Shown here piece after piece: positions 23,518 through 56,800 of a stretch of DNA of 64,000 nucleotides. Position 1 is the stretch's first letter; the number at the start of each line of letters is the position of its first letter. The notes under the pieces are model-generated. The model was not told the origin of the DNA and ran no database searches. It saw only the letters and a list, made by a program, of their open reading frames with translations. Both the position numbers and the translations under genes were made by a program. The DNA is taken from contig CBDDEL010000014.1 in NCBI GenBank assembly GCA_965226885.1, positions 224,001-288,000 on the forward strand. The letters are read 5' to 3'. The stretch comes from Opitutales bacterium. Its GTDB lineage: Bacteria; Verrucomicrobiota; Verrucomicrobiia; Opitutales; UBA2987.

Positions 23518-23633
23518 TGTATTTTATTCATTTATTCATTTATTGGGCTGATGGCCGCTCTTTGAGATTGCTTGCCGCAACTTGTGTTTTGTAACATCCT
23601 ATCTTAATAAAAAACCTGAACTTATCAAGAACC

Positions 23634-24167: not shown

Positions 24168-24195
24168 ATCACCTTGGAATTTAAGCAGTTCTCAC

Positions 24196-24645
24196 TCACC
24201 CGGCGGGGGTGGGGAACCACTGGTAGAGGAAGAAATACACCAGAACCCCTGTCAGGGAGACGTAATACCAGAGCGGAAAGGTGACACGTGCCCAACGGCG
24301 GTGTTTTTCGAAATTTCCTTTCACCGCGAGGTAAAGAGTCCGCAGGACCAGGGGCACAATGACCATGGCCAGGATGATGTGGGAAATCAGCATGGGGTAA
24401 TAAATCAGGGGCCAGATTCCCGTGCCTCCGAATTCCGTATGCATACCTTTAACCAGGATTCGGTTCGTCACATAACCGATTAAAAAGAGGCAGGACAGGA
24501 AAAGCGCACCAGTCATGGCTATACGGTGGGCGTCCTTTTTACCCGACCGGATGAGCAGATAGCCAATCGTCAACAGGACTGCGGCGGCGGCATTTAAACT
24601 GGCGTTGACAGCCGGCAAACTGATGGCTGATAAATATTGGCTCAT
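24196..24645 (-). CDS. DUF420 membrane protein
   Basis: LPAVNASLN, HRIAM, FL.GY, LISHIILA, HRRWAR.T.PLWYYVSLTGV.VY. Confidence 0.88.
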   Translation of the reverse strand: MSQYLSAISLPAVNASLNAAAAVLLTIGYLLIRSGKKDAHRIAMTGALFLSCLFLIGYVTNRILVKGMHTEFGGTGIWPLIYYPMLISHIILAMVIVPLVLRTLYLAVKGNFEKHRRWARVTFPLWYYVSLTGVLVYFFLYQWFPTPAG

Positions 24646-26936
24646 TGGGAAGAGGATTCAGGTTCCGCCTGCGATGATGTTTCGAATTGTTTGATTAAGG
24701 CTTTGAGCTTTTTGGCCTGGTGGATTTTTGGGTTCAATTGGAGCGCTTTTTTCATGTGTTCAACACCTTTCTTTGTTTGACCCATCTCATTGTAAAGAAC
24801 AAGGCCCAAGTATTTTTGGGCGTTGTCCCAGTTTTCGTCGGCCTCAACAGCCTTGAGATGCTGTTCCGCCGCTTCCTCGTGAAGCCCGAATTCCGTAGCC
24901 AGGCGCCCATGAAAAAAATGAAACGATCGATTGCCAGGCGTTGACGATGTAGCCAGGCGGTATTCTTCCAGAGCCTCCTCTTTTTTGCCCTTGGCCAGGA
25001 GAACCCGCCCCAGTATGCGGTGCACCCAGCCCTCGTAGGGCACAATTTTGGCTGCGTGGGAAAGGGTGGCAATGGCTTTGTCGTAGGCCCTTAAATTTTC
25101 ATAGCATTGCCCCAGGTAAAACAAGGCCGAGGGGGAGTTCGGAAAATAACCGACATAACGCTCCAGGATTTCCTTGGCCTCCTTATATTTATGGGACTTG
25201 AGGAGGGCTGCGCCACTCGCATTTAGTGTGTCCGCCCGATAGGGATTGTGCTTTCTGACTTTTTCACCGAAGCGTATGGCATTCTTCCAATCCTGCTGAT
25301 CAATGGAAAACCGCTGGTATTCATAAAACCCATCCGCCTTTACCCAGCGGTGTTGCAGTGCCCCCCAGTATATCGCCAAAAGAATCGAAATGGCCGCACA
25401 CCCGACGGCCAGAAGGGTATGACTAAGTGTCCAAAGAGTCTCACCGCCTTTGTCATTGATTTGCTTCTTCCCGGGCCAGGGAGTTAATCGTACCAATAAA
25501 GCGATGTGCACAGCGATTAAATAGGGTGGAGTGGCCCGATAAAATGGAGAGCTGAAACAAGCCACCAGACCTATTCCCAACAGGGCGACCAGATGGTTGA
25601 TGGCCATTAAGCGGCTGGATTTTCCCTCCTCTAGAAAAAACACGCGCCAGCTCATCTTAAATAATAGAAAACCAGACCACAACAATACCAAAAAACCTGG
25701 TATGCCCAGTTCCGCCGCCAGTTGAATAAAATCGTTATGGGCATATCGTGGCGCTTTAAACAGATTCAGTTCATTGTCCTCCCTTTGCGCCTCGTGGTAG
25801 TTGGGATATTGCGCCCGGAAATTTTGCACACCGATCCCGGTTAGAGGATGATCCTCAATCATTTTCAGGGTATTTTCCCAATAGATGAGACGAAACCGCA
25901 TCGACGAAGTGTTGGTCAATTTGGCGAGTCTCTGCTTTTTATCAGGCGCCGGTTTTTCACTTTTCGCCACTGTTTCGGTCTGGGCTCGAACTTTTTTTTC
26001 ATGTTTTAAATTCGGCAGGTAAGCCACGCAAAAGACCGCCATGACAGCTATCGCAAAAGCGCCAATTTTTTTAAAATCCATCCGGTGAACCGAATTGTGC
26101 CTCAAGCGATCCCAAAGAAAATACGCTCCCAGGAAGAAAAATTGACAACTAATCGCCAACCATGCGGCGCGCGTAACCGTAAAATAAACAAATATCAGCA
26201 TAGCGGCCAGAACCGTCGCGCTGATCCAGGTAAAAATTTTGCCTCGGCAGGTCCCGAGTATTAACATAGCCGCCGGGAGCGTGCCCACCACATAATGCGT
26301 GGCCATGTTTCGGTTGGCGAACGTAGCTGCCGGTGAAGCGTTCTGGTGAACCCAATCGAGGCCGATCAAATACTGTAGAATACCCATCGCGGAAACGAGA
26401 AACCCCGATAGCAAAAGGCAGCTCATCAATTGAATATTGCGTTTCGGTCGATGGAGCAACTGGACGGCTAGAAAAAATACAAGACCGCAAGCGAACCAAT
26501 GAATCCACTGCACTAAACTCAAATATGCATAATTAGACAGGAGTATGTTCAGGCCGCCCCAGGCGAAACCAACGCCCAAAGGAAGATACAATGGGCACTT
26601 CAACACGGAAAAGGATTTTTCCCGGCGGCAATGGAGCAGCCAGACCGCCAGCAGGACCAGAACCCCAAGTTGCAGAAAAATGGTTTTCGGGTAATTGGCA
26701 TAATCGAAAGTAGTTTGAAAAATGGGAAAAGGTAGTAGCAGGGCGACGGCTAAAAAGAGCGCCCAGCAAAGTTTTTCCAGCACCGGCACCCTTTCCAGGA
26801 CTGGCCTTCCCGTTTTTTTTTCGATCTCCCGCTTAACCAGTTCCAGGGGCAGCTTTAAATCCCCAGCAATAGTCTCCGCCGGTTTGCGCGTTGCGGACCG
26901 TTCAATGTATTTACGTTTTTTGTTGGACAGCTCCAT
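24642..26936 (-). CDS. HTH-like/O-antigen ligase (Wzy_C)/TPR membrane protein, paralog 1
   Basis: Multiple TM helices, ATFANRN, TRAAW, GIGVQNF, AHNDFIQLAAELG, C-terminal TPRs. Confidence 0.85.
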   Translation of the reverse strand: MELSNKKRKYIERSATRKPAETIAGDLKLPLELVKREIEKKTGRPVLERVPVLEKLCWALFLAVALLLPFPIFQTTFDYANYPKTIFLQLGVLVLLAVWLLHCRREKSFSVLKCPLYLPLGVGFAWGGLNILLSNYAYLSLVQWIHWFACGLVFFLAVQLLHRPKRNIQLMSCLLLSGFLVSAMGILQYLIGLDWVHQNASPAATFANRNMATHYVVGTLPAAMLILGTCRGKIFTWISATVLAAMLIFVYFTVTRAAWLAISCQFFFLGAYFLWDRLRHNSVHRMDFKKIGAFAIAVMAVFCVAYLPNLKHEKKVRAQTETVAKSEKPAPDKKQRLAKLTNTSSMRFRLIYWENTLKMIEDHPLTGIGVQNFRAQYPNYHEAQREDNELNLFKAPRYAHNDFIQLAAELGIPGFLVLLWSGFLLFKMSWRVFFLEEGKSSRLMAINHLVALLGIGLVACFSSPFYRATPPYLIAVHIALLVRLTPWPGKKQINDKGGETLWTLSHTLLAVGCAAISILLAIYWGALQHRWVKADGFYEYQRFSIDQQDWKNAIRFGEKVRKHNPYRADTLNASGAALLKSHKYKEAKEILERYVGYFPNSPSALFYLGQCYENLRAYDKAIATLSHAAKIVPYEGWVHRILGRVLLAKGKKEEALEEYRLATSSTPGNRSFHFFHGRLATEFGLHEEAAEQHLKAVEADENWDNAQKYLGLVLYNEMGQTKKGVEHMKKALQLNPKIHQAKKLKALIKQFETSSQAEPESSSQ

Positions 26937-26961: not shown

Positions 26962-29277
26962 TTAACTACCCTCCGCTTTTTGGGAGGTCTTTTCAAATTC
27001 GGCAATGATTTTCCGAAGACTTTCCGCATCTCTCTGTTTCGGATTAACCTCCAGGGAAGCTTTCAGGTGTCGAATGCCTTCCTCTTTCCTTTTCAATCCA
27101 TAATAAAGTGAATAGCCCAAATATTTGTGGGCTAGATCAAAAGCATTGTCTAGTTTGACGGATTCCAGCAGAGCCCTGGCTGCTTCTGCATACTTTTTTT
27201 CTTTGTAGGCATAATAACCGAAGTTGTAATGGTAGAGATTTTTTTCGGGAGTATATTGGGCCGCCATACGAAAGCTTTCCATCGCCTCCCTGTCTTTTCC
27301 TTGCGCTCCCAGGACTTGACCCAACAGGTAGTGGATGCTGCCGTCTCTCAAGGAGTATGCGGCTGCCTTGCGGGCGGATTCAAGGGCTTTGTCCATTTTT
27401 CCCATCTTGTAATAAATGGTGGCCTGATGGTAGAAGTTTCCGGCGTCATGGGGAGAAAGACGACCCACTTTTGTCAGATATTCGATGGCTGCATCCAACT
27501 CCCCAAGGGCCAGGTGCGCCCTTCCAATGTAGTTCAGGGTGTCTTTGCGGTAGGGATTGAAAGAGCGCACTTTCTCTCCATAAACAATCGCGTTTTCCCA
27601 GCTTTGCTTGCTGATCGACCTCCTTTGCAGGCTGATGTAACGATCCGCCCACAACCACTTAATCTGTAGGTAACCGAACCCGCCCAAGGCCATCAGGGCA
27701 ATCGTCAATGCTGCATAAAAACGGGGTCCGGATCGATAAATGCGTGGGAAAGCGGCTCCGGTTGATTTCCCTTCTTTTTCCGTTGGGCCGATGCTGCATA
27801 TCCGTGCCAGCACGGCAGCGTAAAGGCCAAAAATGAGCGGCGGTATGGCGCTATAGAGAGGAAAACTGAAGAGAGCATTGACCGACATCCCGGCCACGGC
27901 CGTCAATCCAGCCGCAGCTATAAGCCGGTCATCCTCCCGGCTGCCGGAACCGAGAAGCCGTTTTGCCATACGGAGAAATTCCCAGGCCATCCAGAGTATT
28001 AAAAAAAATCCCGCCAGCCCCAATTCCGCCGTTAGTTGAAGGTAATCGTTATGGGCCTGGTAGCGGTGCCGGTAGATGACCAATTTGTCTTCGCTCTCAA
28101 CTTCATTCATTGTGGCGGGGAAAAATAATCGATAATTTTGCACCCCCACCCCGATCCAGGGGCGATCCCTGATCATGCGCAGGGAATTGCTCCAGACAAA
28201 AAATCGGTCCTTGATCGATTTATGAGATTTTCGCAGTTGCCCAGTCGCCCTGGTTCCATCTTCGACACTGGTGCCGGAATCCCACATGCCGGAGATGCGG
28301 TAATAGATTTTTTTTTCACGAAATTCCCAACCATTGGGGCCGAGGTGAGTCAATATTGCCAGGAGGGCCAATGCCCCCGCCAAGGCGCAGGATTTGTTTC
28401 TATTCAAAGCTCGTTTGGTTTTCCTCACAAAACGATTGTGCAGCCAATAGAGCGCGAAAAGTCCCGTTTCCATCGTCAGGCAAACCCAGGCGGCTCTCGT
28501 GAATGTGTAAAAAGTGTAGGCCGCCATGATCGTTCCGGCCATCGCCCACACCCACACGGAGGCCGAGGCCGTCCTTGGAGCGGAAAAAAACAGATAGACC
28601 GTGGCCGGAAATGCCATCACGATAAAATGCCCGGCCATGTTGCGATTGGCAAAAGTGGCGGCGGGCTTCGCCGTTTGCCCCACCCAGTCTACCCCCAGCA
28701 AATGCTGCAGGATTCCCAAAAACGATATGAGCATTGCGGACAGGGCCAGGACTTTCAAAAAGCTCTCCCAACGGTCTTTGTTGCGAAACTCCTGCGCCGC
28801 CAAAAAGAACAGCACGGCGCAGGCGGCCCAATTCGACCATTGGGAAAATGCCAGAAACCGGTAGGTGGTCCAGATTTGTGAAATGAGCGACCAACCGATA
28901 AAAAAGGCCAGAGGCAGATAGAGCCGGTTTGAATAAATTTCCACCGTGCGGTTCCGGCCGCAGTTGATGGCCAGCCAGATCGTCAGAAGGAGGAGCGCGC
29001 CCACTCCGATAAAGGCTTTTTTGGGCAAATCGCTGTAATCGGTGATCCCGTTGATAAGGATGAAAGGCGCCAGAAACATGAGGGCCAGGATGAGCCGGAA
29101 AAGCAAGCTTTCACGCAGTGGTTGGCCGACGGCTTTGTCCTTGTTTCCTCCTGCCACCAGATGCAGTTCCGCTTTGACTTCTTCCGGTGACAAGCCCAGG
29201 TCCCGGGCAATCTCGGCCACCGGTTTTCGCCCCGCGTGGCGTTTGATGTATTTTCGTTTTTTATTGGAAATCGCCAT
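26962..29277 (-). CDS. HTH-like/O-antigen ligase/TPR membrane protein, paralog 2
   Basis: Start at MAISNKKRKY by alignment with paralogs. ATFANRN, TRAAW, GVGVQNY, AHNDYLQLTAELG, FSFP, TPRs. Confidence 0.85.
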   Translation of the reverse strand: MAISNKKRKYIKRHAGRKPVAEIARDLGLSPEEVKAELHLVAGGNKDKAVGQPLRESLLFRLILALMFLAPFILINGITDYSDLPKKAFIGVGALLLLTIWLAINCGRNRTVEIYSNRLYLPLAFFIGWSLISQIWTTYRFLAFSQWSNWAACAVLFFLAAQEFRNKDRWESFLKVLALSAMLISFLGILQHLLGVDWVGQTAKPAATFANRNMAGHFIVMAFPATVYLFFSAPRTASASVWVWAMAGTIMAAYTFYTFTRAAWVCLTMETGLFALYWLHNRFVRKTKRALNRNKSCALAGALALLAILTHLGPNGWEFREKKIYYRISGMWDSGTSVEDGTRATGQLRKSHKSIKDRFFVWSNSLRMIRDRPWIGVGVQNYRLFFPATMNEVESEDKLVIYRHRYQAHNDYLQLTAELGLAGFFLILWMAWEFLRMAKRLLGSGSREDDRLIAAAGLTAVAGMSVNALFSFPLYSAIPPLIFGLYAAVLARICSIGPTEKEGKSTGAAFPRIYRSGPRFYAALTIALMALGGFGYLQIKWLWADRYISLQRRSISKQSWENAIVYGEKVRSFNPYRKDTLNYIGRAHLALGELDAAIEYLTKVGRLSPHDAGNFYHQATIYYKMGKMDKALESARKAAAYSLRDGSIHYLLGQVLGAQGKDREAMESFRMAAQYTPEKNLYHYNFGYYAYKEKKYAEAARALLESVKLDNAFDLAHKYLGYSLYYGLKRKEEGIRHLKASLEVNPKQRDAESLRKIIAEFEKTSQKAEGS

Positions 29278-29296: not shown

Positions 29297-31579
29297 TCAA
29301 CTCTTGGAACTGGATTTATGTGCGGCTATGACCTGCCTGAGCTGCTCGGCGTCTTTTATCCGGGGATTCAACTGAAGGGCTTTGTCCAGATGGATGATGC
29401 CGGAATCCGGTTCATCAAGTTCGTAAAAAAGGATCAGGCCGAGCAGCAAATGCCCTTTATCGAAGGATGGTTTTAAATCGATCGCTTTGCGGAAAGCACT
29501 GGCCGCTTCCTCGAATCGTTTCATTTCTCTGGCCTTGATCCCCAGATTGTATTGGTAGCTGAAGTTCTCAGGTTTCAGTTCCACGGCCATGCGAAATTCC
29601 TTCAGAGCCTCTTCATGCTTGCCCAGGGAAGATTTTACGCTGGCCAGCAAATCGTGCATTCTCTCCACATTGGGGTCGATTTCAATGCCTCTCTGGAGCG
29701 CTTTTTCTGCCTCCTGGTATTCTTTCAGCAACTGGTGGCTTCTCCCCAGGAGCATTAGGCCTTGGGCGTAATAGGGGTTGTGTTTCTGATAGGCGGCCAG
29801 CAAATCCCTCGCTTTTTTCACTTTTCCGAGTTTCAGATAGATCTGGCCCTTCATCTTCATAGTTTCACTGAGCAGCGGGTTGTAACGTTTTGCCATTTCA
29901 AGCTGGGCCAGCGCTTCCTTATACTTTTCCAACCTGATGGCCACATGCATAGAATGATAATGTTCATCCGATTTAATGACGCGGTATTGCGCCATCGACC
30001 AAAGGATCAATCCTGCCAGGGACAGAATGCAGCCCGCTCCGCTCCATCGGGTACCGGCCACGATCCAGGTATCTCCACGCTCCTGATTTTTAACCGCAAC
30101 CCCCTGGTTATGGTATGAGGTGAAGAATATGGCAAAGTAAACAGCCATCAATATCGGCGGTACAGCCCGGTAGAAGGGAAAGCTGAAATTCGCATTGAGC
30201 GCCATTCCGGCCAGGGCAATCAATGCCGCTGCGCCCAATTGGCGGTCATCCGGTGGACATTCTTTTCCCAGCAGCCTGCTCATTCTCTGAACAATAAGGA
30301 CGCAGGTCCAAATGAAAATTATGGCGAATGGCAACCCCAGTTCGGACAGCAATTGCAGGTGGTCGTTGTGTCCATGCACCGCTTGTTTAAGAATGAGGCT
30401 GTTGTTTCCTCTGGGCCGTTTGATGGAGGTTGTCGGGTAGTGGATTTTGAAATTATCCGCCCCGACTCCCAATAGTGGTTTTCTGGCAATCAGCTCAAGC
30501 GTGTTCTCATATAATATAAGGCGTGATTTGACGCTCATGGCGGAATAACCCCGCAGCTTTTGAAATTTCTCATTGGCCACGCGGGTTTCCGCATCCCACA
30601 TCCCAGCAATGTAATTATATGACTCCTCGCCGCGCCAGCGCACGCCCTCCGGTGTTAGGAAGGACATCGCTATGGTCAGGGCAATGGCGGCCCCTAATGC
30701 GGCCGCTTTCTGTTTACCAAAAACGGTTTCGGTTTTGAACCGAATCTTTTCGAAAACGAAAACGGAGATGAAAAGCAGGAACTCGAAAGAAACGCAAACC
30801 CATGCCGCTTTGGTGTGGGTGTAGAATATAAAGGTATTCAAACAGGCCAGGAAGAAGGCAAAGAGCCAGATCGTCCGTTTATTTTTAGCGCTCAGCAGCA
30901 GGTAAAGACCAGCCGGGAAGACCAGCACGAAAAAGTGTCCGGCCATATTTTTATTGGCAAAGGTAATGGCCGGACGAGCCGTTTGAGGAAACCAGTCCAC
31001 TCCGAGCAAATATTGAAAAAATCCCAAAAACGACAGCACCACGGCCGAGGACACGATCGCAATAAAAATAACACGCGCCTGTTGTCTGTTTTTAATGATT
31101 TGCGCGGTCAGGAAAAAGACCAGCCCGCAGGCCGCCCAATGCGTCCATTTGGACAGTCCGGAATAGGTGTTGAAGGACCAGGTTATGGACAACAACACCC
31201 ATAAAAGAAAGGCGGCCAACGGCAGGTAAAGCCGGCATTTGACAATGGTCAGGGTTTTGGAGCGAAACTGCTCGAACAGCCAAACCGTCAGCAGCAGCAG
31301 GGAACCCAACTGGATGAGCGCGGCCTTGGGCAGATAAGAGCTGGCGTAGATTTCCTTGAAGTTCGGGAACGGGGCCAGAAAAACCAAAATCACCAGGATG
31401 TGAAAACTGGTAAAATAAGCAGTTTTTTTTGTTTTCAGTCTTAGCTTTGAGTTGGAAAATTTTTCAATCTCCAGCTGCACTTTGGCCAACGGCAGGCGCA
31501 GTTTTTTGGCCATGTCCTCGGGCGATTGCTTGCCTACAAAGCGGTGGATGTATTTCAGTTTTTTATTGGAAATACTCAT
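29297..31579 (-). CDS. HTH-like/O-antigen ligase/TPR membrane protein, paralog 3
   Basis: Start at MSISNKKLKY. ITFANKN, TKAAW, GVGADNF, GHNDHLQLLSELG, FSFP, TPRs. Confidence 0.85.
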   Translation of the reverse strand: MSISNKKLKYIHRFVGKQSPEDMAKKLRLPLAKVQLEIEKFSNSKLRLKTKKTAYFTSFHILVILVFLAPFPNFKEIYASSYLPKAALIQLGSLLLLTVWLFEQFRSKTLTIVKCRLYLPLAAFLLWVLLSITWSFNTYSGLSKWTHWAACGLVFFLTAQIIKNRQQARVIFIAIVSSAVVLSFLGFFQYLLGVDWFPQTARPAITFANKNMAGHFFVLVFPAGLYLLLSAKNKRTIWLFAFFLACLNTFIFYTHTKAAWVCVSFEFLLFISVFVFEKIRFKTETVFGKQKAAALGAAIALTIAMSFLTPEGVRWRGEESYNYIAGMWDAETRVANEKFQKLRGYSAMSVKSRLILYENTLELIARKPLLGVGADNFKIHYPTTSIKRPRGNNSLILKQAVHGHNDHLQLLSELGLPFAIIFIWTCVLIVQRMSRLLGKECPPDDRQLGAAALIALAGMALNANFSFPFYRAVPPILMAVYFAIFFTSYHNQGVAVKNQERGDTWIVAGTRWSGAGCILSLAGLILWSMAQYRVIKSDEHYHSMHVAIRLEKYKEALAQLEMAKRYNPLLSETMKMKGQIYLKLGKVKKARDLLAAYQKHNPYYAQGLMLLGRSHQLLKEYQEAEKALQRGIEIDPNVERMHDLLASVKSSLGKHEEALKEFRMAVELKPENFSYQYNLGIKAREMKRFEEAASAFRKAIDLKPSFDKGHLLLGLILFYELDEPDSGIIHLDKALQLNPRIKDAEQLRQVIAAHKSSSKS

Positions 31580-32009
31580 TTTAAAAACTGTTCCCAAAAG
31601 CGGTGCAAGTCACAACCCAAAAAGGGCAGGGCAGTTTTGTAATAAATAAGGTAACCTGATTCAATGTTCCGTCCTCTCGATTTGTTTCAGAAGATTTCGC
31701 AACGATTGCGCCTCCTTGCCAACAGGTTTTAGTTCAATGGCCTTTTTCAGGTGAGCGATCCCCTCCTTGGGTTGATCCAGGTGCTGAATGAGGGTCAATC
31801 CCAGGTATTTTCGGGCCGGAAAGTAATCTCCTTTTAAAGAAACGGATGTTTGCAGCGCAACGGCAGCTTCCTCGTAGCGCCCCAATAAAAATGCGGTTAC
31901 TCCCTGGTTGTAATGATAATTGCTTTTCCTGGGAACCAGCCGTGCGGCCAGTCGAAATTCTTCCAGTGCCTTTTTCGATTGGTTCAACCCGGTGTAAGCC
32001 CAGCCCATC

Positions 32010-33334
32010 TGACGTGTACTGGATTTGTTGGACACGGGATTCTCTTATATTCATTGTTTATTGATTAGTGTGTCAGGCGGCTTGTTTTGGTAAAGGGTTT
32101 TGTTTTCTCGTTGCCCCCCATGGGGGGCAAATATTCTCCTCGAATTGGACTGGGCTTTGGTAACTCAGAGAGGAATGTTTGCGATATCGGTTGTAGAAGA
32201 TTTCCACGTATTCGAAGACAGTTGATCGCAGTTCGCGCTCGTCGGCAAAGTGGCGGCCTCGAATCGTGCTGGTCTTGAAGCGGCCGTAGAACGATTCCAT
32301 GGCCGCGTTGTCGTAGCAGTTGCCTTGGGCGCTCATGCTCGGCTTCATGCCTAGTTCAGAGACCAGCCTCTGATAGTCGTCGCTGGCGTAGGGGCTGCCC
32401 CGATCGCTGTGATGAATAATCCCGGTGCGCAGTGTGCCGCGGGTCATGGCCGCGGCTTTGAGGGCCTTGCCAACCAGCTTCGCGTCGTTGTGGTTGGAAA
32501 CGCTCCAGCCCAGCAGGCGTCGGCTGAACAGGTCCATCACCGTGGCCAAGTACATCCAACCGGCCAGGGTCCGTAGGTAGGTCGTGTCCGCCACCCAGAC
32601 CTCGTCGATATGGGTCGGCTGGCCATGCTTTTTAAGCACATTGGGGCTGTAACCATAGGGATGGTTACTGTTGGTTTTTAATGGCTTAAAGCGTTTACTC
32701 TGGGTGCTTTTGATTCCCATTTCACGCATCAGACGCAGAGCCCGGTCACGGCCGCAATCGATGCCCTCATCATCCTTCAGATGGCGGTGCATTGGCCGAT
32801 GCCCATAGCGGCCCTTGGCCTCTTTGTGTACCTTCAGGATCGCCCCCTTGATTCCCTCGTCCTCGATCCGCCGGGCCGAGGGCGCTCGGTGCCTCCAGCA
32901 GTAATAGCCACTGCGACAAATCCCCATCGCCGAGCATATTTCCTCGATCTTGAAGCGCCCCTCGTTGTCTTTGACAAACTGGTACTTCATTGTTCGTCCT
33001 TGGCAAAGTAGCCCACCGTTTTTTTTAGTATCTGGTTGATCCGCTCCGAGCGGCGCAGCTCTTTGCGAAGACGATCTATCTCGGCCGCCATCTCCTTCGG
33101 ACTGCTCTGTCGCTTTGAGGTGGCTTCGCCCTGCTGATCGTCCAGATAGAGCCTCTTCCACCTATACAATTGGTTGGTGTTGACCCCAGGTTTGGTCGAT
33201 ACCTCGGTGGCGCTCAGACCATCGAGTATCATCAGTTGAACTGCCTCATTTTTGAACTCTATACTGCGTCTTCTTCCCATGCTTCGATTCTCCATTTAGG
33301 AGAATCTCGTGTCCACTTTTTCCAGTGCACATCA
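32010..33334 (-). mobile_element. IS3-family element (type 2), copy 1; orfA 32987-33295, orfB ending at 32073
   Basis: TGA.GTG.ACTGGA IRs, 3-bp TSD ATC, A8C slippery site, WVADTTY / HSDRG / DNAAMES DDE motifs. Confidence 0.93.
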
Positions 33335-34202
33335 ATCAAGTCCCGTAATTTGCCATCGGTGGGGAGTATTTTTATAGCTGTTTCCACCAATGGTTTTGCC
33401 TTCGCATATTCATTCAACTCTTTGTAACAAAGGGCCAGGTAATAAAGGCCAGGTAATAAAGGTTGTAGGTGGCATACGGATAAACTTTATGAAATTCCTC
33501 CATATAATCAATAGCTCTTCTTCGTTTATTTATTTCAGCCAAAGCGCGACCCTGGAGATGTTGGACATCCTTTCGAAACGGATTGAATTTTTCCACCTTG
33601 TTTCCCCAATAAATGGATTCCTTAAGATATCCATCCCGTAGTGCTAGGCCTTGTATTTCGAAGCTACTCTCTGCTCGAAAAAAACGGTATTGCCAATAAA
33701 GCCAAGTGACTAAAAATCCAATCGTTAGTGTGATCCCGATAAGGACGAATTTTTTGTGTGTGATAGTCCAAAATTTTTCGTTGCTCTCAGGATCGATAAG
33801 CCGAAATACAGTAGCTCCGTAAATAGATAGAATAAATGGAGGCAATGCTACGTACATCGGAAAACTAAATACCGAATTTATAGAAAGCCCCAGGACTGCG
33901 GCCAGGCATGCAAAAGCCGTATCGCGATTTTCATCTGATAAATTACTTCTGAATAATCTCTGAACCATTCTCACCAGGATTGCCATTGTCCAAAGAATCG
34001 CAAGAAGCCCCGGCATCCCCAATTCCGCAACTATTTGGAGGTAATCGTTATGAGCTTTGGGCTGGACGAAGTTTAGACTTACTTCCTTATCCCTTTTACC
34101 AGTGAAGGCGCTGGTGGGATAGTGGACCACAAAATTATCTAATCCGACACCTATTAAAATATTGTTTTTAATGATTTCCAACGAGTTTCGGTAAAGTCTT
34201 AG

Positions 34203-35769
34203 CCCGGATATTTCGTAAAAAAAGTATCGTTGATATGCTTAACTGCTGATATACAGCAGGATAGATCAATAATTAAAGCAATATCAGCGATGACAAAAGG
34301 TAAACAATTAAAGCTACAGTTGACAAGGGTAAAAGGACGCCGTGTGCGGGTTGATTTCAAGGGCGGAGAGGTTACTTCGGATGCCGGACTGCTTTTGATC
34401 CGGGAAGTGGATCGGCAGTTGGGCTTGACCGAACGAGCGGCCCGACAGTTAGTGGACAAACGGCAGAAGGGCAAAGTACGCCATGAGGTATTGGGGATGC
34501 TGCGGCAGCGCGTTTACGGGCTGGTGGCGGGCTATGAGGATTTGAACGACTTTGATACCCTGCGCCACGATCCATTGTTGCAAACGGTAACGGGGCGCAT
34601 TGAAACGTTGGCCAGCGCGCCGACTTTGTGTCGTTTTGAAAACGGGCAGGATCGGCGGGCGGCCTTTGCGGTAAACGAGCTGTTGGTCGAACAGTTCATG
34701 GGCTCCTTTGCCGAGGAACCCGAAGAGATCATCCTGGACTTTGACGCCACCGACAATCCGGTGCACGGGCTCCAGGAGGGACGTTTTTTCCACGGTTATT
34801 ATGATCATTACTGTTTTCTGCCGCTATATGTTTTTTGCGGTGATCAGCTGCTGGTGGCCTACCTGCGGCCGAGCAAGATCGATGCCAGCAAGCATGCCGG
34901 GGCCATCCTCAAATTGCTGGTTAAACGGATTCGCCAAAGCTGGCCCCGTACGCGGATTATTTGGCGCGCCGACAGTGGATTTTGTCGAGACCGGATACTC
35001 TCTTGGTGCGACCGCAACGAAGTTAGTTACATCGTGGGGATGGCTCGCAATGCACGCTTGCAGCAAGACGCCCAGCAGTTGCAAAAGCAGGCCAAAGAAT
35101 GGTTCGAACTAAGGGGTAAAAAACAACGGTTATTCCAGGACTTCGTCTATGCTGCCGATTCGTGGCGATGGCTGCGGTTGGTCATCCATAAAGCCGAACA
35201 CACCGCACAGGGGTCCAACCCGCGCTTCGTGGTGACGAACCTGCCGGGCGATCCCCAGGAGCTTTACGACAAGGTATACTGTGGCCGCGGTGAAATGGAG
35301 AACCGAATCAAGGAACAGATGCAATTGTTCAGCGAGCGCACCAGCGCCCATCAATGGTGGGCCAATCAGTGGCGATTGCTCTTGTCGGCGCTGGCCTACA
35401 CCTTGATGGAAGCCATGCGCCGGTTAGCCTTAAAAGGGACGAAGTGGGCGCGGGCCCAATGCCACACCCTGCGGCTCAAATTAATCAAGATCGGAGCGGT
35501 CATCGTGCGCAACACCCGAACGATTCACTTTCACCTAAGTGAGAGTTATCCTTGGGCCAGTCTTTTCAACCATGCGGCCCGCCGATTGGTGCCAACCTAA
35601 AGGGTGCATTGGTGCTGCCCCCGGCACTACCGAACCAATGGGGGAAAGGGGGCAGTGTCTCTACACCCTGAAAAACACCTAAAAATCAAGACGATCTGCT
35701 CAAAATACAAAGAAATCCATCTCCAATAGCAATAACGAGCCAAACTTTACCCTTCATGAAATATCCGGG
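34203..35769 (+). mobile_element. IS1380-family element, copy 2 (intact)
   Basis: CCCGGATATTTC IRs, TSD TTAG. Confidence 0.95.
34290..35600 (+). CDS. IS1380 transposase
   Basis: TSDAGLLL, GYEDLND, LDFDATD, RADSGF, Y..RGEMENRIKE. ATG at 34290 preferred over the upstream TTG. Confidence 0.93.
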   Translation: MTKGKQLKLQLTRVKGRRVRVDFKGGEVTSDAGLLLIREVDRQLGLTERAARQLVDKRQKGKVRHEVLGMLRQRVYGLVAGYEDLNDFDTLRHDPLLQTVTGRIETLASAPTLCRFENGQDRRAAFAVNELLVEQFMGSFAEEPEEIILDFDATDNPVHGLQEGRFFHGYYDHYCFLPLYVFCGDQLLVAYLRPSKIDASKHAGAILKLLVKRIRQSWPRTRIIWRADSGFCRDRILSWCDRNEVSYIVGMARNARLQQDAQQLQKQAKEWFELRGKKQRLFQDFVYAADSWRWLRLVIHKAEHTAQGSNPRFVVTNLPGDPQELYDKVYCGRGEMENRIKEQMQLFSERTSAHQWWANQWRLLLSALAYTLMEAMRRLALKGTKWARAQCHTLRLKLIKIGAVIVRNTRTIHFHLSESYPWASLFNHAARRLVPT

Positions 35770-35776
35770 TTAGTTA

Positions 35777-37595
35777 GAGGCTGTCCCAAAAGGGTGATTT
35801 TTGCGAGGGCTTTTGATAGGCGCTCATTTTAGAGGTATTTGCATTTGGGAGAGTATCAACTTTGCTCTCCTATGACGTTAGGATACTGGTTTTGGGGTCC
35901 GGTTGCCTGGTTTTCTTTGTATGAGCCGACAGTACGGCTGTGAAAAAGTATTGTCCTTGCTTTTCCGCTCTCTCTAGGCCGCCGCTTTGGTTTTTAGTTC
36001 GTCTTGCTGGGCCAGCATCTTGGCTACTTTCCATAGGTTGTGCGAGAGTACCGACCAGGCTACGCTGATCGAGCGGTTGGCAAAGCCTTTGCTGCGCAAC
36101 CGCCCGGCCTGCCAGCGATTCTTCAATACCCCGATCCGCCCTTCGGTGCTGGCCCGGCGCTTTTGCAATTGTCTGAACAGTGGTTCCTCCCTCCGTTTTT
36201 TCAACTGCTTCGGATCGCGTGGACAGAGCGCGTCGTAGATTCCCTCCTGGGCTAACTGCCGGCGGGCCCGCTGGGAGGCAAATCCCCGGTCCGCGCACAT
36301 GGCCGCTATGGGTTCTTCCAGGTTGAAGCGGTTCTGTCTTTGCAAACTCTCTAGCATTTGTTCATTTTCGCTTGGAGTTCGGCTGCCGTAGAGTTTCCAG
36401 TCCAGCAGGTACCCTTCAACGCTTTCTCCCAAAAACAGGGTGTTGCCGAACTCGACCTCTTGGCCCGCTTTACCTCGCACAATCACCTGCCCATCGAGTT
36501 CGTAAACACTCAAGACTTTCTCTGCGTTTTTCACCTGCCGGCCGCCAATGATCCGCTCGTGCGCCTGTTTGATGACCACCGGGATTTGCTCGCTCATGCG
36601 CTCCATCCGGGCGAGGATCTGTTGGACCTGTTTTTCGCTGTAATCGCTTTGCTCCCAGCAGGCTTGCAATAATTCCCGGTGACTGCGGGCATGCTCCCCG
36701 ATCCGTTTGAGCAGCTTTTTCATCTGCCTCAAGATACCCTTGCGCTGCCGCGCGCTGTCCTTTCGCCGCCGGCTGTGGGTCATCTGTATGCACAGCCGAT
36801 TCATCTGCCGAGCCAAGGGCTCCGGTTCGATCGGCATGCGATGGCGCAAACCGGCCTTCTCGCGGATCAGCCGGATCGCTTTGAGCAACGTGCCGGCTAC
36901 ATCCTTGAGTAATACCCAGTCCGTCGGCCAATGAATGTTAGCCTCCAAACAGGTGCCGTCGATCAGGCAAATGGTGGTGTCAATCGGCTTGTCCAATCCC
37001 ACCTGCCGGGCCAGAAGGGCATCGGCCACCACCTCAGTCAAGGTCCGGTGCAAGGCCCTCAACTGCTCTTCGCTGAAAAACTTCGAGGCCCGCTCCAGGG
37101 TGCTTTTGGAGATGCCCCTGATGCCATCGATCTGCCGGACACGGCAAAAGTCGGCCAACAGATCGCTGCTGCCCAGAGCCCGCGACAAATGCCGAAACGA
37201 AATCCCTCCGAGCAGACGGCCCAGCGTATCCATGCGCAGTGCCTTGATGGCAAAACTGGCCCGCTGCCGCCGGGCCTTTAGACCCATTGGCGGCCACCCC
37301 TCCAAGGCCAGCTCAATGGCCTGCGATTCCACCTCCGAGTCGATCAGCAGCCGATCGATTCGATCAATGGTGGCGCGGAAGTTATCGTAATCGAGGCACC
37401 GGTCGACCACAGTTAAAGCTGGACGCAGGAGGCATTGGATGGCTATATTTTTCATAGAAAGGGCTATATTGATTTTCGCTAACTCAATTATAGAACCCTT
37501 TTTTGGCCGGATCGAGCAAAAACTTGCTCTTTCCGGCTCTTTTTATCAACGTCATCCAGTTGACTATAAAATCTTTATATTTTTGGGACAGCCTC
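35777..37595 (-). mobile_element. IS5/ISNCY-like element, copy 2 (transposase 35974-37455); flanks not duplicated
   Basis: Same IRs and near-identical 493-aa ORF as copy 1. Left flank TAGTTA, right flank CAACCT. Confidence 0.9.
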
Positions 37596-37772
37596 CAACC
37601 TAAAGGGTGCATTGGTGCTGCCCCCGGCACTACCGAACCAATGGGGGAAAGGGGGCAGTGTCTCTACACCCTGAAAAACACCTAAAAATCAAGACGATCT
37701 GCTCAAAATACAAAGAAATCCATCTCCAATAGCAATAACGAGCCAAACTTTACCCTTCATGAAATATCCGGG
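37596..37772 (+). mobile_element. IS1380 right-end remnant
   Basis: Matches the last ~177 bp of IS1380 from CAACCTAA to the IR, followed by TTAG. Confidence 0.9.
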
Positions 37773-38552
37773 TTAGCCATAAGAAAAAACACAAACCCCA
37801 AGGGAAAACCTAAAACAACATATTGGGATGCGTGATTTCGATTAACAAAAGTGGCCGCGGGAGGAGCAGTTTGACGCACCCAATCTAGTTCGAAATAATA
37901 TTGCGTGAGCCCGAAAAGGGACACCAATGTTGTGGAAATAAAAAATGAGAACAAAATCCTTCTCAAGCTGAGGTTATCAGCCGGAAGATTCAAAATAGTA
38001 ATGAAAATCAGCCCGCATGCGGCCCAGTGCGCCCACTGTGTGAATGCGTTATAACCGTCGTTAGCCCAAAAGACTGAGAGAAGGGACCAAACAATAATAA
38101 TAGCCAGTGGCAGATAAAGAGGGCACTTTCGAATTTCAACCTTACGGGAATTATACAACGCTCGCAACCAAACCCCAAAAATCATCAGGGAACCGATCTG
38201 CACAAAGGTTTTTTTTGGCATGTCCGATAAATCAGTGAATGAAGGGACTACTATAAACGGAGCCAGGAGAACCATTCCACATAGAGTCCAGACAAGGAAT
38301 CCAGTGGATGTGTTCTTCGAAGATAGATTTTTCTTATGGTGGATTTTCTCCAATTCCGCTAAAACTTCTTCTAACGGAATTTTAAGAACATTTGCGATTT
38401 CATCCGGATCCTTCCGATTTGACTGCCTGTGGATGTATTTGCGTTTTTTGTTGGAAAGGCTCATGCTCGAATTCGTTCTGGTTTGTCGAAATGATTGCCA
38501 GTTCAAGTAAAGTCGAAATGTTTTCGGGTAAAAGTAGTTTTTCGATTCAAGG

Positions 38553-40820
38553 TTACGGCTGGTCGAACTTTTCCAGAAGTTTCCTCAATATTTTCGCATC
38601 TTTGCCGGTGGGCTTGAGAGCCAGGGCCTCTTTGAGGTGGATGAGCCCTTCTTCCTGTCGGCCCAGATGCTCAACCAGGGTCAACCCCAAAAATTTGCGG
38701 GCTAAATAGTAATCGCCTTTTAATTCCACCGATTTTCCCAAGGCCTCCGCGGCTTCCGCATATTTACCCATTAAGAATGCCGTTACCCCCTGGTTATAGT
38801 GATAATTACTTTTTTTAGGTATCATTTTTGCCGCTAGGCGAAATTCCTTGAGGCTTTTCTCCGGCTGGTTGAGGCTGCTGTAGACCCAGCCCATGAGGTC
38901 GCGCAGTCTGCCTTCGTGGGGCAGGATTTCGATGGCTCTTTCCACCAACGGTTTGGCCTTCTCGAATTGATTGAGTTCCTTATAACAAAGCGCCATGTAA
39001 TAAAGATTGTAAGTGGCGTAGGGATAGGATTCATGAAATCGCTTAAAATGCTCTATGGCTCTCTTGCGGTCTTCCATATTTAGCAGTGCCCGGGCCAGAT
39101 AATTGTCTACATCTTTGCGCCATGGGTTCATCTCATGAGCCTTTAATCCCCAATGGACGGACTCTTTATAGTACCTGTCGCGAAGGCCGATGCTTTGCAG
39201 GTTGTAATAAAATTCTGAACGCAAAATACGATATTGCCAATAGGTCCCCACGGCCAAAATTACGGTCACCAGGATGACGCCCGCAAAGGCGATTTTACCG
39301 TTGGAAAATACCCACTTGGGCTTTTCCCCAACTTCCCTTTTATCGGTCACGAGGAAAAAAATCGCGGTATAAATCCCCAGCAGAAACGGAGGCATGGCCA
39401 GGTAGAGGGGAAAACTGACGACCGCGTTGACAGATAATCCTAGGATACTGATCAGGCAAGCGCAGCCCGTATCCCGCTTTTCCTGAGAAAGCCGTTTGCC
39501 AATAAAAACCGGTAGTCTGCCGGCCAAGGCAACTAGAAAACACAGGATGGCCGCTACGGCTGGCATGCCCAATTCCGAGGTTATTTGCAGGTAATCATTG
39601 TGTGTGTTGGCCTGTTGTTTATTCAGCGAGATTTCCTTGTCCGGCCATCCGGTGAGAGTGCTTTTCGGGTAATAGACCACGAAATTATTCAGCCCCACGC
39701 CTTTCCATGGATTTCCCTTGATGATTTCCAAAGCATTCCGGTAGAGGGTTTTGCGGGTTGAAACACTGTTCAGTTTTTGGCTCTTTTTTGGAAATTCATC
39801 TTCAGTGGAATGATCCTCTTTGGCATCGCTTTCCACTAAACTGGATAACCGGTCGAAAGCTCTTTGGCCTCGCCAACTCAAACCCTTTTCGGATAGGCTG
39901 GCCAATAGCAGAAACACCAAAATGGCGGCCCCTACAGATGCCAGTTTTTGCCCGCCGTAAAATAACGTAGAATTGAGTCGGAATTGGCGATAGCCCAGAT
40001 AAACCAGGAAAAGAAATGTCTGGCCGCTGACGGTAAGCCACCCCGCTCGTGTGAAGGTATGAAACAAGTAGGAGCCTATAAATGCCAGGGACACGGCGAT
40101 GGCCCAGATCAAGACTCTCCTCCTGGCCATCAGTAATAATATCAATCCCAGAGGGAAAGTTAATACGACATATTGGGAAGCGGCATTTCGATTGGCGAAT
40201 GTGGATGATGGCGGAGCAATTTGTCGAACCCATTCGACCCCGAAGATTTCCTGGGCCAGGCCGAGGAGGGAAATCAGGGTGGCGGTGATGAAGATGAATC
40301 CTAAAATGAGGTTTTGCTTGCGGGTGTCGTTGAGGATCTGAATGGCTACGAAAAATACTAGTCCGCAGGCCGCCCAGTGAATCCAGATTATAAACGCCCT
40401 AAAATGGTCGCTGGCCCAACTGTTGGAGATAAGAGCCCAAAGGAGGAAAAAACCTAATGGTAGATACAAAAAGCATTTGCGAATCTCACCAACCGGCGAT
40501 CGGGAAAGGTTGTGCACCCAAAACCCGAATAAAATCAAGGAACCCAGTTGGATGAATGCTTTTTTGGGAGCATCGGAGAAATTGTATAATTCTTGCAGGA
40601 CCACGAATGGAGCCAAAAAGATAATTCCGGCCAGAATCCAGACCAAATATTTATCCGAATTATGAGGAACTGCAGCGCCTCCATCGGTTTTGCCCGAAAG
40701 CGAATCCAGATGGGCCATGATCTCCTTTAGAGGCACATTCAGATCGCGCGCAAATTCAGCCGGACTCTTGCGCCCGGCGTGCCGTTGCAGGTATTTTAGC
40801 TTCTTTTTGGAAAGCGCCAT
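38553..40820 (-). CDS. HTH-like/O-antigen ligase/TPR membrane protein, paralog 5
   Basis: MALSKKKLKY, STFANRN, TRAGW, GVGLNNF, THNDYLQITSELG, TPRs. Closest relative of paralog 4. Confidence 0.85.
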   Translation of the reverse strand: MALSKKKLKYLQRHAGRKSPAEFARDLNVPLKEIMAHLDSLSGKTDGGAAVPHNSDKYLVWILAGIIFLAPFVVLQELYNFSDAPKKAFIQLGSLILFGFWVHNLSRSPVGEIRKCFLYLPLGFFLLWALISNSWASDHFRAFIIWIHWAACGLVFFVAIQILNDTRKQNLILGFIFITATLISLLGLAQEIFGVEWVRQIAPPSSTFANRNAASQYVVLTFPLGLILLLMARRRVLIWAIAVSLAFIGSYLFHTFTRAGWLTVSGQTFLFLVYLGYRQFRLNSTLFYGGQKLASVGAAILVFLLLASLSEKGLSWRGQRAFDRLSSLVESDAKEDHSTEDEFPKKSQKLNSVSTRKTLYRNALEIIKGNPWKGVGLNNFVVYYPKSTLTGWPDKEISLNKQQANTHNDYLQITSELGMPAVAAILCFLVALAGRLPVFIGKRLSQEKRDTGCACLISILGLSVNAVVSFPLYLAMPPFLLGIYTAIFFLVTDKREVGEKPKWVFSNGKIAFAGVILVTVILAVGTYWQYRILRSEFYYNLQSIGLRDRYYKESVHWGLKAHEMNPWRKDVDNYLARALLNMEDRKRAIEHFKRFHESYPYATYNLYYMALCYKELNQFEKAKPLVERAIEILPHEGRLRDLMGWVYSSLNQPEKSLKEFRLAAKMIPKKSNYHYNQGVTAFLMGKYAEAAEALGKSVELKGDYYLARKFLGLTLVEHLGRQEEGLIHLKEALALKPTGKDAKILRKLLEKFDQP

Positions 40821-48836: not shown

Positions 48837-49371
48837 TTAGCACAAATATGGCGAATATGAGGAGGGCCAGAATGATCTCTGCCATGACGGACAACCAGGC
48901 CGCCCGCGTAAATGTGTAAAACAGATAAGTCGCCATAACGACTGTCGATAAAGAGCCGAACCAGATGGCGAGGGCGGTCCGGGCCGAAAAAATAACGCTG
49001 CTGCGGCTGGCAGGGTTATGATCATCATTTGCGCCCCCATGTTTTTATTGGCAAAAGTAGAGGCGGGTGAAGCGGTTTGTTTTACCAGATCGACATCGTA
49101 TAAATATTGAGTGCACCCCAGCAAGGCGACCAACGTTCCGGAAATAGCGATGGAGACAAACAGACGATAGATTTGGCCGGGCCTGCCCAAGGACTGCAGG
49201 GCGAGGAAAAATACTACCCCGCTGGCGCACCAGCGATTCCAGACGATGAATCCTCCAAATGGCTCACGGGCCCAGAACAACGACAACAGCGCCCAACCCA
49301 CAAATCCGGCCAGGGGAAAATACAAAGGGCATTTTAACACTTCCAAACGACCTTTGCGAACTGCCTTAATG

Positions 49372-50977: not shown

Positions 50978-51117
50978 CCTTAATGAACCAAAAAGTTAGC
51001 CAGAACAAAGTTCCCAATTGGATAAATACCGCTTTCGGCATATTGGTATAATCCCAATTGCGCTCGAAAATGACAAGCGGAGCAATGACTATAATAATCG
51101 GCAGAATAAGGTTTTCG

Positions 51118-51919: not shown

Positions 51920-52060
51920 GGTTTTCGCAGGTTTCCCAAATGTTTCTCTCTTGAATGGCTTTGGCTGCGATGTAGCCTCCCATAACGGCCAACACCTGAT
52001 CCACTGGAATCCTCAATTCACGGGCCATTTGCGATGCCGCTTTTTTACCAGAGAACCGCT

Positions 52061-54577: not shown

Positions 54578-54744
54578 ACCGCTGAATGTATTTTATCTTT
54601 TTATGGGAGAGCGTCATGGGTGCTGCCTCATTGCCATCGAATAAAATATAACCCTCGTAAATTCAAGCATCTCCTTTATCTCAAGGAGGTGGGGTTTTCC
54701 AGATATTTTCACTATCCAATGGCTAGAATAGAAATCCGGCCGGT

Positions 54745-56696: not shown

Positions 56697-56800
56697 TTGT
56701 CCATGCCACTCAATCGGCAAAACCCATTAATGACAAAAACCGCCAACTATTCAATCTTTCAAAACAAAACACAATCCGGCTTCGGCCCATTGCCTGGCGC

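What the first reader, a model, noticed from the sequence alone, without database searches (positions are those of the whole stretch)
29160..29277. Conserved ~40-aa tri-helical HTH-like cap fused to the N-terminus of every paralog
Seen in all six: MELSNKKRKYIERSATRKPAETIAGDLKLPLELVKREI; MAISNKKRKYIKRHAGRKPVAEIARDLGLSPEEVKAEL; MSISNKKLKYIHRFVGKQSPEDMAKKLRLPLAKVQLEI; MSLSNKKRKYIHRQSNRKDPDEIANVLKIPLEEVLAEL; MALSKKKLKYLQRHAGRKSPAEFARDLNVPLKEIMAHL; MTLSHKKIKYIQRFSGKKAASQMARELRIPVDQVLAVM. The pattern [IMF]A..L.[LIV][PS]...[VI] is the classical helix-turn-helix signature. The cap is better conserved than the linker after it and precedes the first TM helix, so it is probably cytoplasmic. I do not recognise an HTH cap on characterised WaaL/PglL proteins. 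Inference: a cytoplasmic nucleic-acid-binding or protein-docking module, for example for localisation, hetero-oligomer assembly or translational feedback. The often acidic third helix favours protein docking over DNA recognition.
Basis: partly seen in the sequence, partly recalled or inferred. Interest (0 to 1): 0.7.

Follow-up and report, generated by a model that had tools for sequence, protein, structure and literature searches.

The report
Portable helix-turn-helix tag on envelope enzymes
A small folded, positively charged protein tag sits inside the cell at the start of several unrelated membrane enzymes that work on the outer face of the membrane, which suggests a shared, so far undescribed way of positioning these enzymes.

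Summary
Observation confirmed. The 40-residue cap starts four intact and two IS-broken O-antigen-ligase-like (Wzy_C)+TPR genes in the window. It is predicted as a tri-helical HTH (pLDDT 88) on a disordered linker, on the cytoplasmic side. It is the best-conserved part of the paralogs (47% identity versus 28-35% for the membrane domain) and under purifying selection (dN/dS 0.18).

It is not specific to these genes. The same N-terminal cap precedes the first membrane helix of TMTC-like, STT3-like, sulfatase-like and phosphodiesterase-like enzymes in other phyla. One Wzy_C/TMTC pair shares 33 of 40 cap residues with unrelated membrane domains, so the module is shuffled.

Conserved exposed residues are basic and lie on helix 1; the recognition helix is variable and near neutral. 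No shared upstream operator was found. It matches no Pfam family above threshold.

Best reading: a portable cytoplasmic docking tag binding a common anionic partner (ribosome/export site, acidic scaffold protein or lipid), not a transcription factor. The partner is not shown. Cap-less homologs exist, so it is accessory.

The parts
29158..29277 (-). HTH cap (codons 1-40) of paralog D, the finding itself
26962..29277 (-). Paralog D, intact, 771 aa: cap, disordered linker (43-53), 13-helix WaaL-fold membrane domain with R358/H409, C-terminal TPRs
26817..26936 (-). HTH cap of paralog E
24642..26936 (-). Paralog E, intact, 764 aa, Wzy_C + TPR
31460..31579 (-). HTH cap of paralog C
29297..31579 (-). 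Paralog C, intact, 760 aa, Wzy_C + TPR
38345..38464 (-). HTH cap of an extra, IS-broken paralog
31661..38464 (-). Span of that broken paralog: pieces near 37757-38464, 33265-34238 and 31661-32044, separated by IS elements
40701..40820 (-). HTH cap of paralog B
38553..40820 (-). Paralog B, intact, 755 aa, Wzy_C + TPR
54578..54617 (-). First 13 codons of the cap of broken paralog A, up to the IS21-like insertion
52061..54577 (.). IS21-like element (istA/istB-like ORFs; family name recalled) inserted in the cap of paralog A, 6-bp target duplication
51975..52060 (-). Remainder of the cap of paralog A (helices 2 and 3)
45809..51065 (-). Further pieces of paralog A (50979-51065, 48837-49397, 45809-47268) between IS elements
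54745..56112 (-). Bacterial sugar transferase (PF02397) directly upstream of the array; likely makes the lipid-linked glycan donor (inference)
56142..56720 (-). Hexapeptide-repeat acetyltransferase upstream of the sugar transferase

Best explanation
The cap is a portable cytoplasmic docking tag. It folds as a small tri-helical HTH, hangs on a flexible 10-45-residue linker before the first membrane helix, and sits on the opposite side of the membrane from the active site. It has been fused repeatedly to unrelated enzymes whose catalytic domains face the periplasm and modify exported proteins or envelope glycans. It uses a conserved basic face on helix 1 (K6, K7, K9, Y10, R13), not the recognition helix, to grip a widely conserved anionic partner, which places the enzyme where its substrate emerges or is assembled. 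My single most likely partner is the ribosome or the protein-export site (about 0.2 on its own); an acidic scaffold protein (RodZ-MreB style) and anionic lipid are next (about 0.12 each). Shown by tools: sequence family, predicted fold, mobility, selection and conservation pattern. Inferred: cytoplasmic location, which residues are exposed, binding, and the partner.
For: Fold: AF2 pLDDT 88 for the cap alone and 87-95 in the full protein, with linker 43-53 under 50. Topology: 13 predicted membrane helices with the N-terminus inside put the R358/H409 loop and the TPRs outside (WaaL match Z 22.4, rmsd 4.7, 370 aligned). Carriers: 133 distinct caps, of which Wzy_C 73, TMTC-like 29, sulfatase-like 7, STT3-like 6, phosphodiesterase-like 2 and 16 unclassified, mostly fragments (Pfam checks on subsets). 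In 116 of 117 carriers longer than 150 aa a membrane helix follows (median start residue 60). Shuffling: P0105 (TMTC-like) and P0113 (Wzy_C) share 33 of 40 cap residues while only their TPRs align otherwise. Selection: dN/dS 0.18 for the cap, 0.12 for helix 1, 0.21 for helices 2-3 and 0.49 for the linker among syntenic orthologs; lysine codon choice in helix 1 is the same as in the rest of the gene, so the selection is on the protein. Charge: arm plus helix 1 is net +4.4 and positive in 60 of 60 representatives; non-core helix-3 positions are poorly conserved (relative entropy 0.9-1.3 bits versus 1.9-3.0 for positions 5-7, 9, 10, 13, 14). The cap stays under selection in an Opitutales genus although it was not found in 300 and 400 other genomes drawn from that phylum and class, so the partner is probably universal. 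Precedents: the RodZ HTH binds MreB and not DNA (PMC6946637 passage); mammalian OST docks on rRNA through a cytosolic helical bundle of RPN1 (PMC6761772 passage).
Against: No binding partner was identified. Cap-less homologs exist: G014 holds a capped and a cap-less copy, both read from DNA, and P0010, P0012-P0016 and P0127 lack it, so the enzymes probably work without it. The distribution is patchy (13 of 13 genomes in one small phylum, 13 of 79 in another after removing one IF2 hit), which is odd for a general export-site tag. Sulfatase-like and phosphodiesterase-like enzymes are not known to act on nascent chains (recalled). Most family members were found with cap profiles seeded on the basic helix 1, which inflates its apparent conservation; only the ortholog dN/dS and the four window paralogs are free of that bias. 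One member found with the full-length profile (P0128) lacks K6 and K7, and L099 keeps only helix 1. Solvent exposure was inferred from helix periodicity, not measured on coordinates.
Confidence: 0.45

Rival explanations
1. Biogenesis tag. The folded, basic cap fixes the N-terminus inside, keeps the first helix an uncleaved anchor, and protects or stabilises the protein; it binds nothing specific.
For: The cap always lies at the extreme N-terminus before TM1 and is net positive, which fits the positive-inside rule (established knowledge). Some cap-less homologs carry an unstructured basic tail instead (G014:C170; P0017 and P0019). It would be useful on any N-in membrane protein, which explains the shuffling.
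Against: The cap is more conserved than the enzyme's own membrane domain (47% versus 28-35%), more than a charge-only role needs. All classified carriers are envelope-modifying enzymes; no transporter, sensor or other membrane protein appeared among the classified caps.
Confidence: 0.2
2. Nucleic-acid regulator. The HTH binds its own promoter or its own mRNA and gives feedback on expression, as membrane-anchored transcription factors do.
For: The fold is closest to DNA-binding Myb and GcrA domains (Z 7.4 and 7.1). Sub-threshold Pfam hits are HTH families. In one phylum 14 of 15 capped genes look first in their transcription unit, and 7 of those 14 have a -10-like box 6-10 nt before the ATG versus 6 of 93 background genes.
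Against: Z under 8 is common for such a model (tool note). Helix 3 lacks conserved polar residues. No 8-mer or dyad stands out upstream of 45 genes (top count 8, shuffled maximum 8). All five genes of a tight array keep the cap although only the first could have a promoter. The leaderless-like pattern is absent in the Opitutales genes (0 of 14) and rare in the second phylum (2 of 18).
Confidence: 0.15
3. Self-association module. Caps bind each other (basic helix 1 on acidic helix 2) and assemble paralogs or different modifying enzymes into one complex.
For: Several genomes carry 2-5 capped enzymes of different classes. Helix 2 is mildly acidic (mean -0.7). In one phylum the caps of different enzyme classes group together (83/89 support). 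RodZ's HTH also binds RodZ.
Against: The whole cap is net +4.8, which disfavours self-binding. Several genomes show only one capped gene (incomplete assemblies).
Confidence: 0.1
4. Non-specific DNA tether that links the membrane enzyme to the nucleoid.
For: Net positive HTH fold on a flexible cytoplasmic linker.
Against: The basic residues lie on helix 1, which in a canonical HTH faces away from DNA (recalled). There is no evident reason for periplasmic enzymes to need DNA.
Confidence: 0.1

Closest known systems
Simple tri-helical HTH domains: Myb repeat (PDB 6kks, 6jui) and GcrA DNA-binding domain (PDB 5yiu)
   Same: Three helices of the same lengths and arrangement; Z 7.0-7.4, rmsd 1.3-1.5 over 43-44 residues.
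   Different: 11-19% identity. The conserved basic residues are on helix 1 and the recognition helix is variable. It is fused to membrane enzymes and not to a regulator.
RodZ N-terminal HTH (XRE-type, binds MreB)
   Same: A cytoplasmic HTH before a membrane helix that serves for protein docking and not DNA binding (PMC6946637 passage).
   Different: A different, larger HTH class (84 residues). No RodZ or XRE family was among the top 25 Pfam families for the caps. RodZ is a single-pass scaffold, not an enzyme.
WaaL O-antigen ligase and PglL/PglS O-linking oligosaccharyltransferases (Wzy_C, GT-C-B)
   Same: The carrier in this window has the WaaL fold (Z 22.4), passes the Wzy_C cutoff, and has invariant R358 and H409 in 41 of 41 aligned sequences.
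   Different: It adds the cap and a C-terminal TPR domain, occurs as a five-paralog array, and does not reach the Wzy_C_2 cutoff in the four intact genes. The acceptor (lipid A or protein) is not shown.
TMTC1-4 O-mannosyltransferases and STT3/AglB/PglB oligosaccharyltransferases (GT-C-A)
   Same: Other carriers of the cap show TMTC-type motifs (DD loop, YRP, SKE, R/H-x-x-Y-x-P) with PMT_2 hits, or pass the STT3 cutoff. Prokaryotic TMTC homologs are already noted in print (PMC7801869 passage).
   Different: I found no description of an N-terminal HTH on these enzymes in the searches run.
RPN1 cytosolic four-helix bundle of mammalian OST-A
   Same: Functional analogy only: a cytosolic helical module that docks a lumen-facing glycosyltransferase on the ribosome (PMC6761772 passage).
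   Different: Different fold, a separate subunit, and no homology. Ribosome binding by the cap is not shown.

Membership tests
Tri-helical HTH fold | Three helices with a short turn between helices 2 and 3 | tested here: met
   Predicted H5-14, H20-27, H31-42, pLDDT 88; same in the full-length model. A prediction, not a solved structure.
Tri-helical HTH fold | HTH signature: hydrophobic-small in helix 2, G-type turn, hydrophobic in helix 3, conserved core | tested here: met
   Positions 3, 11, 23, 29, 34 are 100% hydrophobic; A24 88%, L27 90%, G/N at 28 64% in 60 representatives.
Sequence-specific DNA-binding HTH regulator (Myb, GcrA, sigma region 4, AsnC) | Curated family score | tested here: not met
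   No Pfam or NCBIfam HTH model reaches its cutoff on the window caps (best 21.9 bits versus cutoff 27). For the other 40 members of A3 only E-values were shown (best 3.5e-6, AsnC-type).
Sequence-specific DNA-binding HTH regulator | Conserved polar residues on the recognition helix | tested here: not met
   Non-core helix-3 positions have relative entropy 0.9-1.3 bits and mixed charge.
Sequence-specific DNA-binding HTH regulator | Shared operator upstream of own genes | tested here: inconclusive
   No motif above shuffles in 45 upstream regions; exact-word test, low power for diverged operators.
Sequence-specific DNA-binding HTH regulator | Binds DNA | not testable with these tools
   Needs EMSA, SELEX or ChIP.
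RodZ-type MreB-binding HTH | XRE-type HTH sequence | tested here: inconclusive
   Not among the listed Pfam or structure matches; unlisted is not excluded.
RodZ-type MreB-binding HTH | Binds MreB | not tested
   No cap-MreB prediction was run.
Wzy_C / WaaL-like GT-C-B (carrier) | PF04932 above cutoff | tested here: met
   51-88 bits versus cutoff 31.7 in 4 of 4 intact genes.
Wzy_C / WaaL-like GT-C-B (carrier) | WaaL fold with 13 membrane helices and a periplasmic Arg/His site | tested here: met
   Z 22.4 to 7tpg; R358 and H409 invariant in 41 of 41, R/K261 in 40 of 41. Residue equivalence to WaaL is by analogy with the PglS description, not by a residue-level superposition.
PglL/PglS protein O-oligosaccharyltransferase (carrier) | Wzy_C_2 (PF11846) domain | tested here: inconclusive
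   Not hit in the 4 intact genes; hit at 29.1 bits versus cutoff 28.5 in the C-terminal piece of broken paralog A.
PglL/PglS protein O-oligosaccharyltransferase (carrier) | Transfers glycan to protein Ser/Thr | not testable with these tools
   Needs glycoproteomics or reconstitution.

The most novel reading that the evidence does not exclude
The cap is a bacterial ribosome or translocon docking domain that has been recruited independently by O-linking, TMTC-type and STT3-type transferases and by phospho- or sulfo-modifying enzymes. It would let them modify proteins as they are exported: a shuffleable prokaryotic counterpart of the eukaryotic OST-ribosome contact.
Probability: 0.18. Interest if true: 0.85.

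Novelty: new variant of a known kind. Interest (0 to 1): 0.62.

Why it matters
How bacterial protein-glycosylating enzymes meet their substrates, and whether they couple to export, is open; a PglS paper raises Sec coupling as a possibility (PMC12800693 passage). A 40-residue module shared by at least three unrelated enzyme folds gives a direct handle: whatever it binds is the common organiser. It is small, soluble and easy to test, and one carrier is named from a cultured strain (Desulfatibacillum alkenivorans DSM 16219, P0008). If it targets enzymes to the export site, it could be grafted on engineered oligosaccharyltransferases for glycoconjugate production. Even if it is only a biogenesis tag, it is an unannotated domain family that could be mistaken for a transcription factor.

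Tried and rejected
Cap-cap dimer prediction: no answer, score 0.10 against a mark of 0.42; not evidence either way. ESM Atlas: best scores 0.79-0.80, below the lead threshold; a GcrA cluster at 0.79. Foldseek on the cap: no match at E 0.001 or better. PDB sequence searches with cap profiles: only partial matches, mostly to helices 2-3 of generic HTH proteins and a designed repeat. The PDB search with the TMTC-like alignment at E 1e-40 returned only TPR proteins, so the TMTC-like call rests on motifs and PMT_2 hits. The profile-profile alignment of Wzy_C and TMTC-like carriers is driven by the cap and the TPRs; the membrane part is at 15% identity overall and was not taken as homology. Upstream operator search: nothing above shuffles except an A/T-run palindrome in 6 of 22 regions versus a shuffled maximum of 5. 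Nucleotide-level explanation (A-rich start codons): rejected, AAA use in helix 1 equals the rest of the gene. Shared gene neighbours: none across lineages; solitary carriers mostly sit among housekeeping genes (neighbour names partly recognised from sequence, 11 neighbours scanned). Viral contigs: 0 matches to the degenerate cap pattern. Transposase-remnant origin: considered because IS21 IstA is among the fold matches, rejected as a present-day explanation because of purifying selection. The cap tree needs 11 label changes against a minimum of 4, but with 40 columns the starred branches force no more than one origin per class, so it is only suggestive. The WaaL structure paper was not held. 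Earlier findings by sequence and by words: none.
Full report
1. Observation. The finding covers codons 1-39 of a 771-aa minus-strand gene, 26962-29277. The window holds six starts with the motif M-x-(L/I)-S-x-KK-x-KY. Four head intact genes of 755-771 aa with Wzy_C above the Pfam cutoff and C-terminal TPRs. One (38464) heads a gene cut into pieces by IS elements. The genome has a second five-gene array on C17, 86-89% identical in DNA, with one frameshifted gene. A sugar transferase and an acetyltransferase lie directly upstream of both arrays. Close relatives are labelled Opitutales.

2. Fold and topology. In the full-length model the cap scores 87-95 and the following linker (43-53) under 50. 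The best structural matches are Myb repeats and the GcrA DNA-binding domain (Z 7.0-7.4, rmsd 1.3-1.5), a middling score that shows a common arrangement and no function. No curated HTH family reaches its cutoff on the window caps. The membrane part matches WaaL (7tpg, Z 22.4). Counting 13 membrane helices with the N-terminus inside puts the loop with invariant R358 and H409 (41 of 41) and the TPRs outside, as described for PglS (PMC12800693, passages). The cap is therefore on the cytoplasmic side, away from the active site. This is inference from the model and the positive-inside rule.

3. Conservation. Among the four intact window paralogs the cap is 47% identical, the linker 7%, the membrane parts 35% and 28%, and the TPRs 32%; in 34 capped sequences of alignment A4 the values are 44%, 6%, 30%, 27% and 26%. 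Among syntenic orthologs of three genomes dN/dS is 0.18 for the cap (0.12 helix 1, 0.21 helices 2-3), 0.49 for the linker and 0.175 for the first membrane part (pairs pooled, not independent). Each of the five array positions keeps its own cap type across genomes. Lysine codon use in helix 1 equals that of the rest of the gene in the three larger groups.

4. The cap is a mobile module. A five-sequence profile against 1.84 billion representatives gave 69 hits: 48 single N-terminal matches and 21 multi-stretch matches, 14 of them proteins with HTH families. Wider profiles found it in 13 of 13 genomes of the small phylum of G353 (3 of 29 matches were IF2 or a sigma factor) and in 14 of 79 genomes of the phylum of G351, which holds Candidatus Auribacter (one of these is IF2). 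Among 60 relatives of the host, strong matches were in 3 (G002, G003, G014). None were found in 300 other genomes of the host's phylum or 400 of its class (these samples overlap). An exact degenerate pattern gave 16 metagenome loci, 13 of them true caps.

Pooling everything gave 139 distinct matches; 6 generic HTH hits were dropped, leaving 133: Wzy_C 73, TMTC-like 29, sulfatase-like 7, STT3-like 6, phosphodiesterase-like 2, unclassified 16. Classes were set by motif rules and checked by Pfam on subsets: STT3 above cutoff in 5 of 5 genes tested, Sulfatase in 4 of 4, Phosphodiest in 2 of 2. PMT_2 passed in 3 of the 8 TMTC-like genes scanned apart from L118, which had no hit; the rest were classed by motifs described for TMTCs (PMC7801869, passages). 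L127 is a further PMT-like carrier with a weak cap score. The STT3-like and phosphodiesterase-like carriers tested at full length have no TPR hit, so TPRs are not the common factor. In 116 of 117 carriers over 150 aa a membrane helix follows, starting at a median of residue 60. The clearest sign of recent shuffling is P0105 (TMTC-like) and P0113 (Wzy_C): 33 of 40 cap residues identical, with no alignment between their membrane domains. At least three unrelated folds carry it: GT-C-B, GT-C-A and the alkaline-phosphatase superfamily (fold groupings from established knowledge).

5. Which face matters. In 60 representatives under 60% identity the core positions are hydrophobic (3, 11, 23, 24, 27, 29, 34, 38), with capping residues S4 and S/T19. 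The conserved non-core positions are on helix 1: K/R at 6 (82%), 7 (70%), 9 (87%) and 13 (77%), Y/F at 10 (78%). Arm plus helix 1 is net +4.4 and positive in all 60. Non-core helix-3 positions are variable and the helix is near neutral. DNA-reading HTH proteins show the reverse pattern (recalled). Caveat: most members were found with profiles seeded on this basic helix; the ortholog dN/dS is the unbiased support. No shared upstream motif was found in 45 regions.

6. Results against a vital role. G014 has a capped and a cap-less homolog, the latter with a short basic tail. G001, in the same genus, has one cap-less copy at the syntenic site with no ATG, GTG or TTG in frame before TM1, possibly a 5'-truncated remnant. 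P0010, P0012-P0016 and P0127 lack the cap. P0121-P0126 appear cap-less, but four of them start at what looks like helix 3, so their starts may be miscalled (DNA not seen).

7. Mechanism. The parts fit a portable docking tag: folded, cytoplasmic, flexibly tethered, exchanged between enzymes, selected on a basic face, and kept after what looks like transfer into a lineage that otherwise lacks it. That points to a universal anionic partner. All carriers are predicted to act on the outer face of the membrane on exported proteins or envelope glycans, so I rank the ribosome or export site first (about 0.2), then an acidic scaffold protein or anionic lipid (about 0.12 each); together 0.45. Rivals: biogenesis or topology tag 0.2, DNA or mRNA feedback 0.15, self-association 0.1, nucleoid tether 0.1. 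Precedents are RodZ, whose HTH binds MreB and not DNA (PMC6946637, one passage), and RPN1, which docks OST on rRNA (PMC6761772, one passage). These are analogies, not tests.

8. Novelty. The fold is old; the family and its spread over unrelated envelope enzymes appear undescribed. Full-text searches for such fusions (listings and abstract starts) returned nothing on it. Passages of PMC12419801 describe HTH fusions to other membrane enzymes (Lipocone/VanZ), not these. The library lacks most subscription journals, and I did not look at supplements, where domain-architecture tables could list this fusion. Verdict: real, an apparently new mobile HTH module, function inferred; interest 0.62.

Noticed in passing
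L128-L142 and other loci of the G353 phylum: Capped genes often have a -10-like hexamer 5-12 nt before the ATG, suggesting leaderless mRNAs: 7 of 14 versus 6 of 93 background genes; 13 of 24 overall, including all 7 sulfatase-like genes. Kin are not independent and background starts are first-ATG guesses. Not seen in the Opitutales genes.
   Followed up: partly
G000:C17:813795-825420 (L002, L003) and G000:C15:486800-488480 (L001): The whole locus is duplicated in this genome (86-89% DNA identity), and a third, near-identical partial copy ends after the first cap at an IS element.
   Followed up: partly
window 21700-24645; L003:1446-4364; L027:12533-15383; L159:12372-14765: Conserved downstream block after the arrays: DUF420, a small cupredoxin-like protein in the other loci, and an SLC13-like permease (the last two names recalled, not scanned).
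   Followed up: no
L159:9780-11930 (G001:C43): The five-gene array is reduced to one cap-less C-type copy with an open 741-codon frame but no usual start codon before TM1.
   Followed up: partly
L099:1477-3054 (G362): A TMTC-like gene keeps only helix 1 of the cap; helices 2-3 are deleted.
   Followed up: no
P0044, P0052, P0086: Odd fusions, possibly assembly chimeras: cap plus a short unrelated helical tail (82 aa); cap, TM1 and DD loop joined to an aldose epimerase; cap joined directly to the middle of a Wzy_C domain.
   Followed up: no
L107, L108, L120: The wider cap profile weakly hits the N-terminal domain of translation initiation factor IF2 (17-22 bits), and IF2_N is a sub-threshold Pfam hit for 6 of 41 caps. 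Probably generic HTH similarity, but IF2 is a ribosome ligand.
   Followed up: no
L128, L130, L131: Capped sulfatase-like and phosphodiesterase-like genes lie beside GT2, GT1/GT4, PMT_2 and LPG-synthase-like genes. The sulfatase-like proteins have T-L-P-S-H in place of the usual C/S-x-P-x-R motif (usual motif recalled), so they may be phosphoryl transferases.
   Followed up: partly
window 31661-63400: Very high IS density, with several families in multiple near-identical copies; the two 5'-most kinds of damage to the array are all IS insertions.
   Followed up: partly
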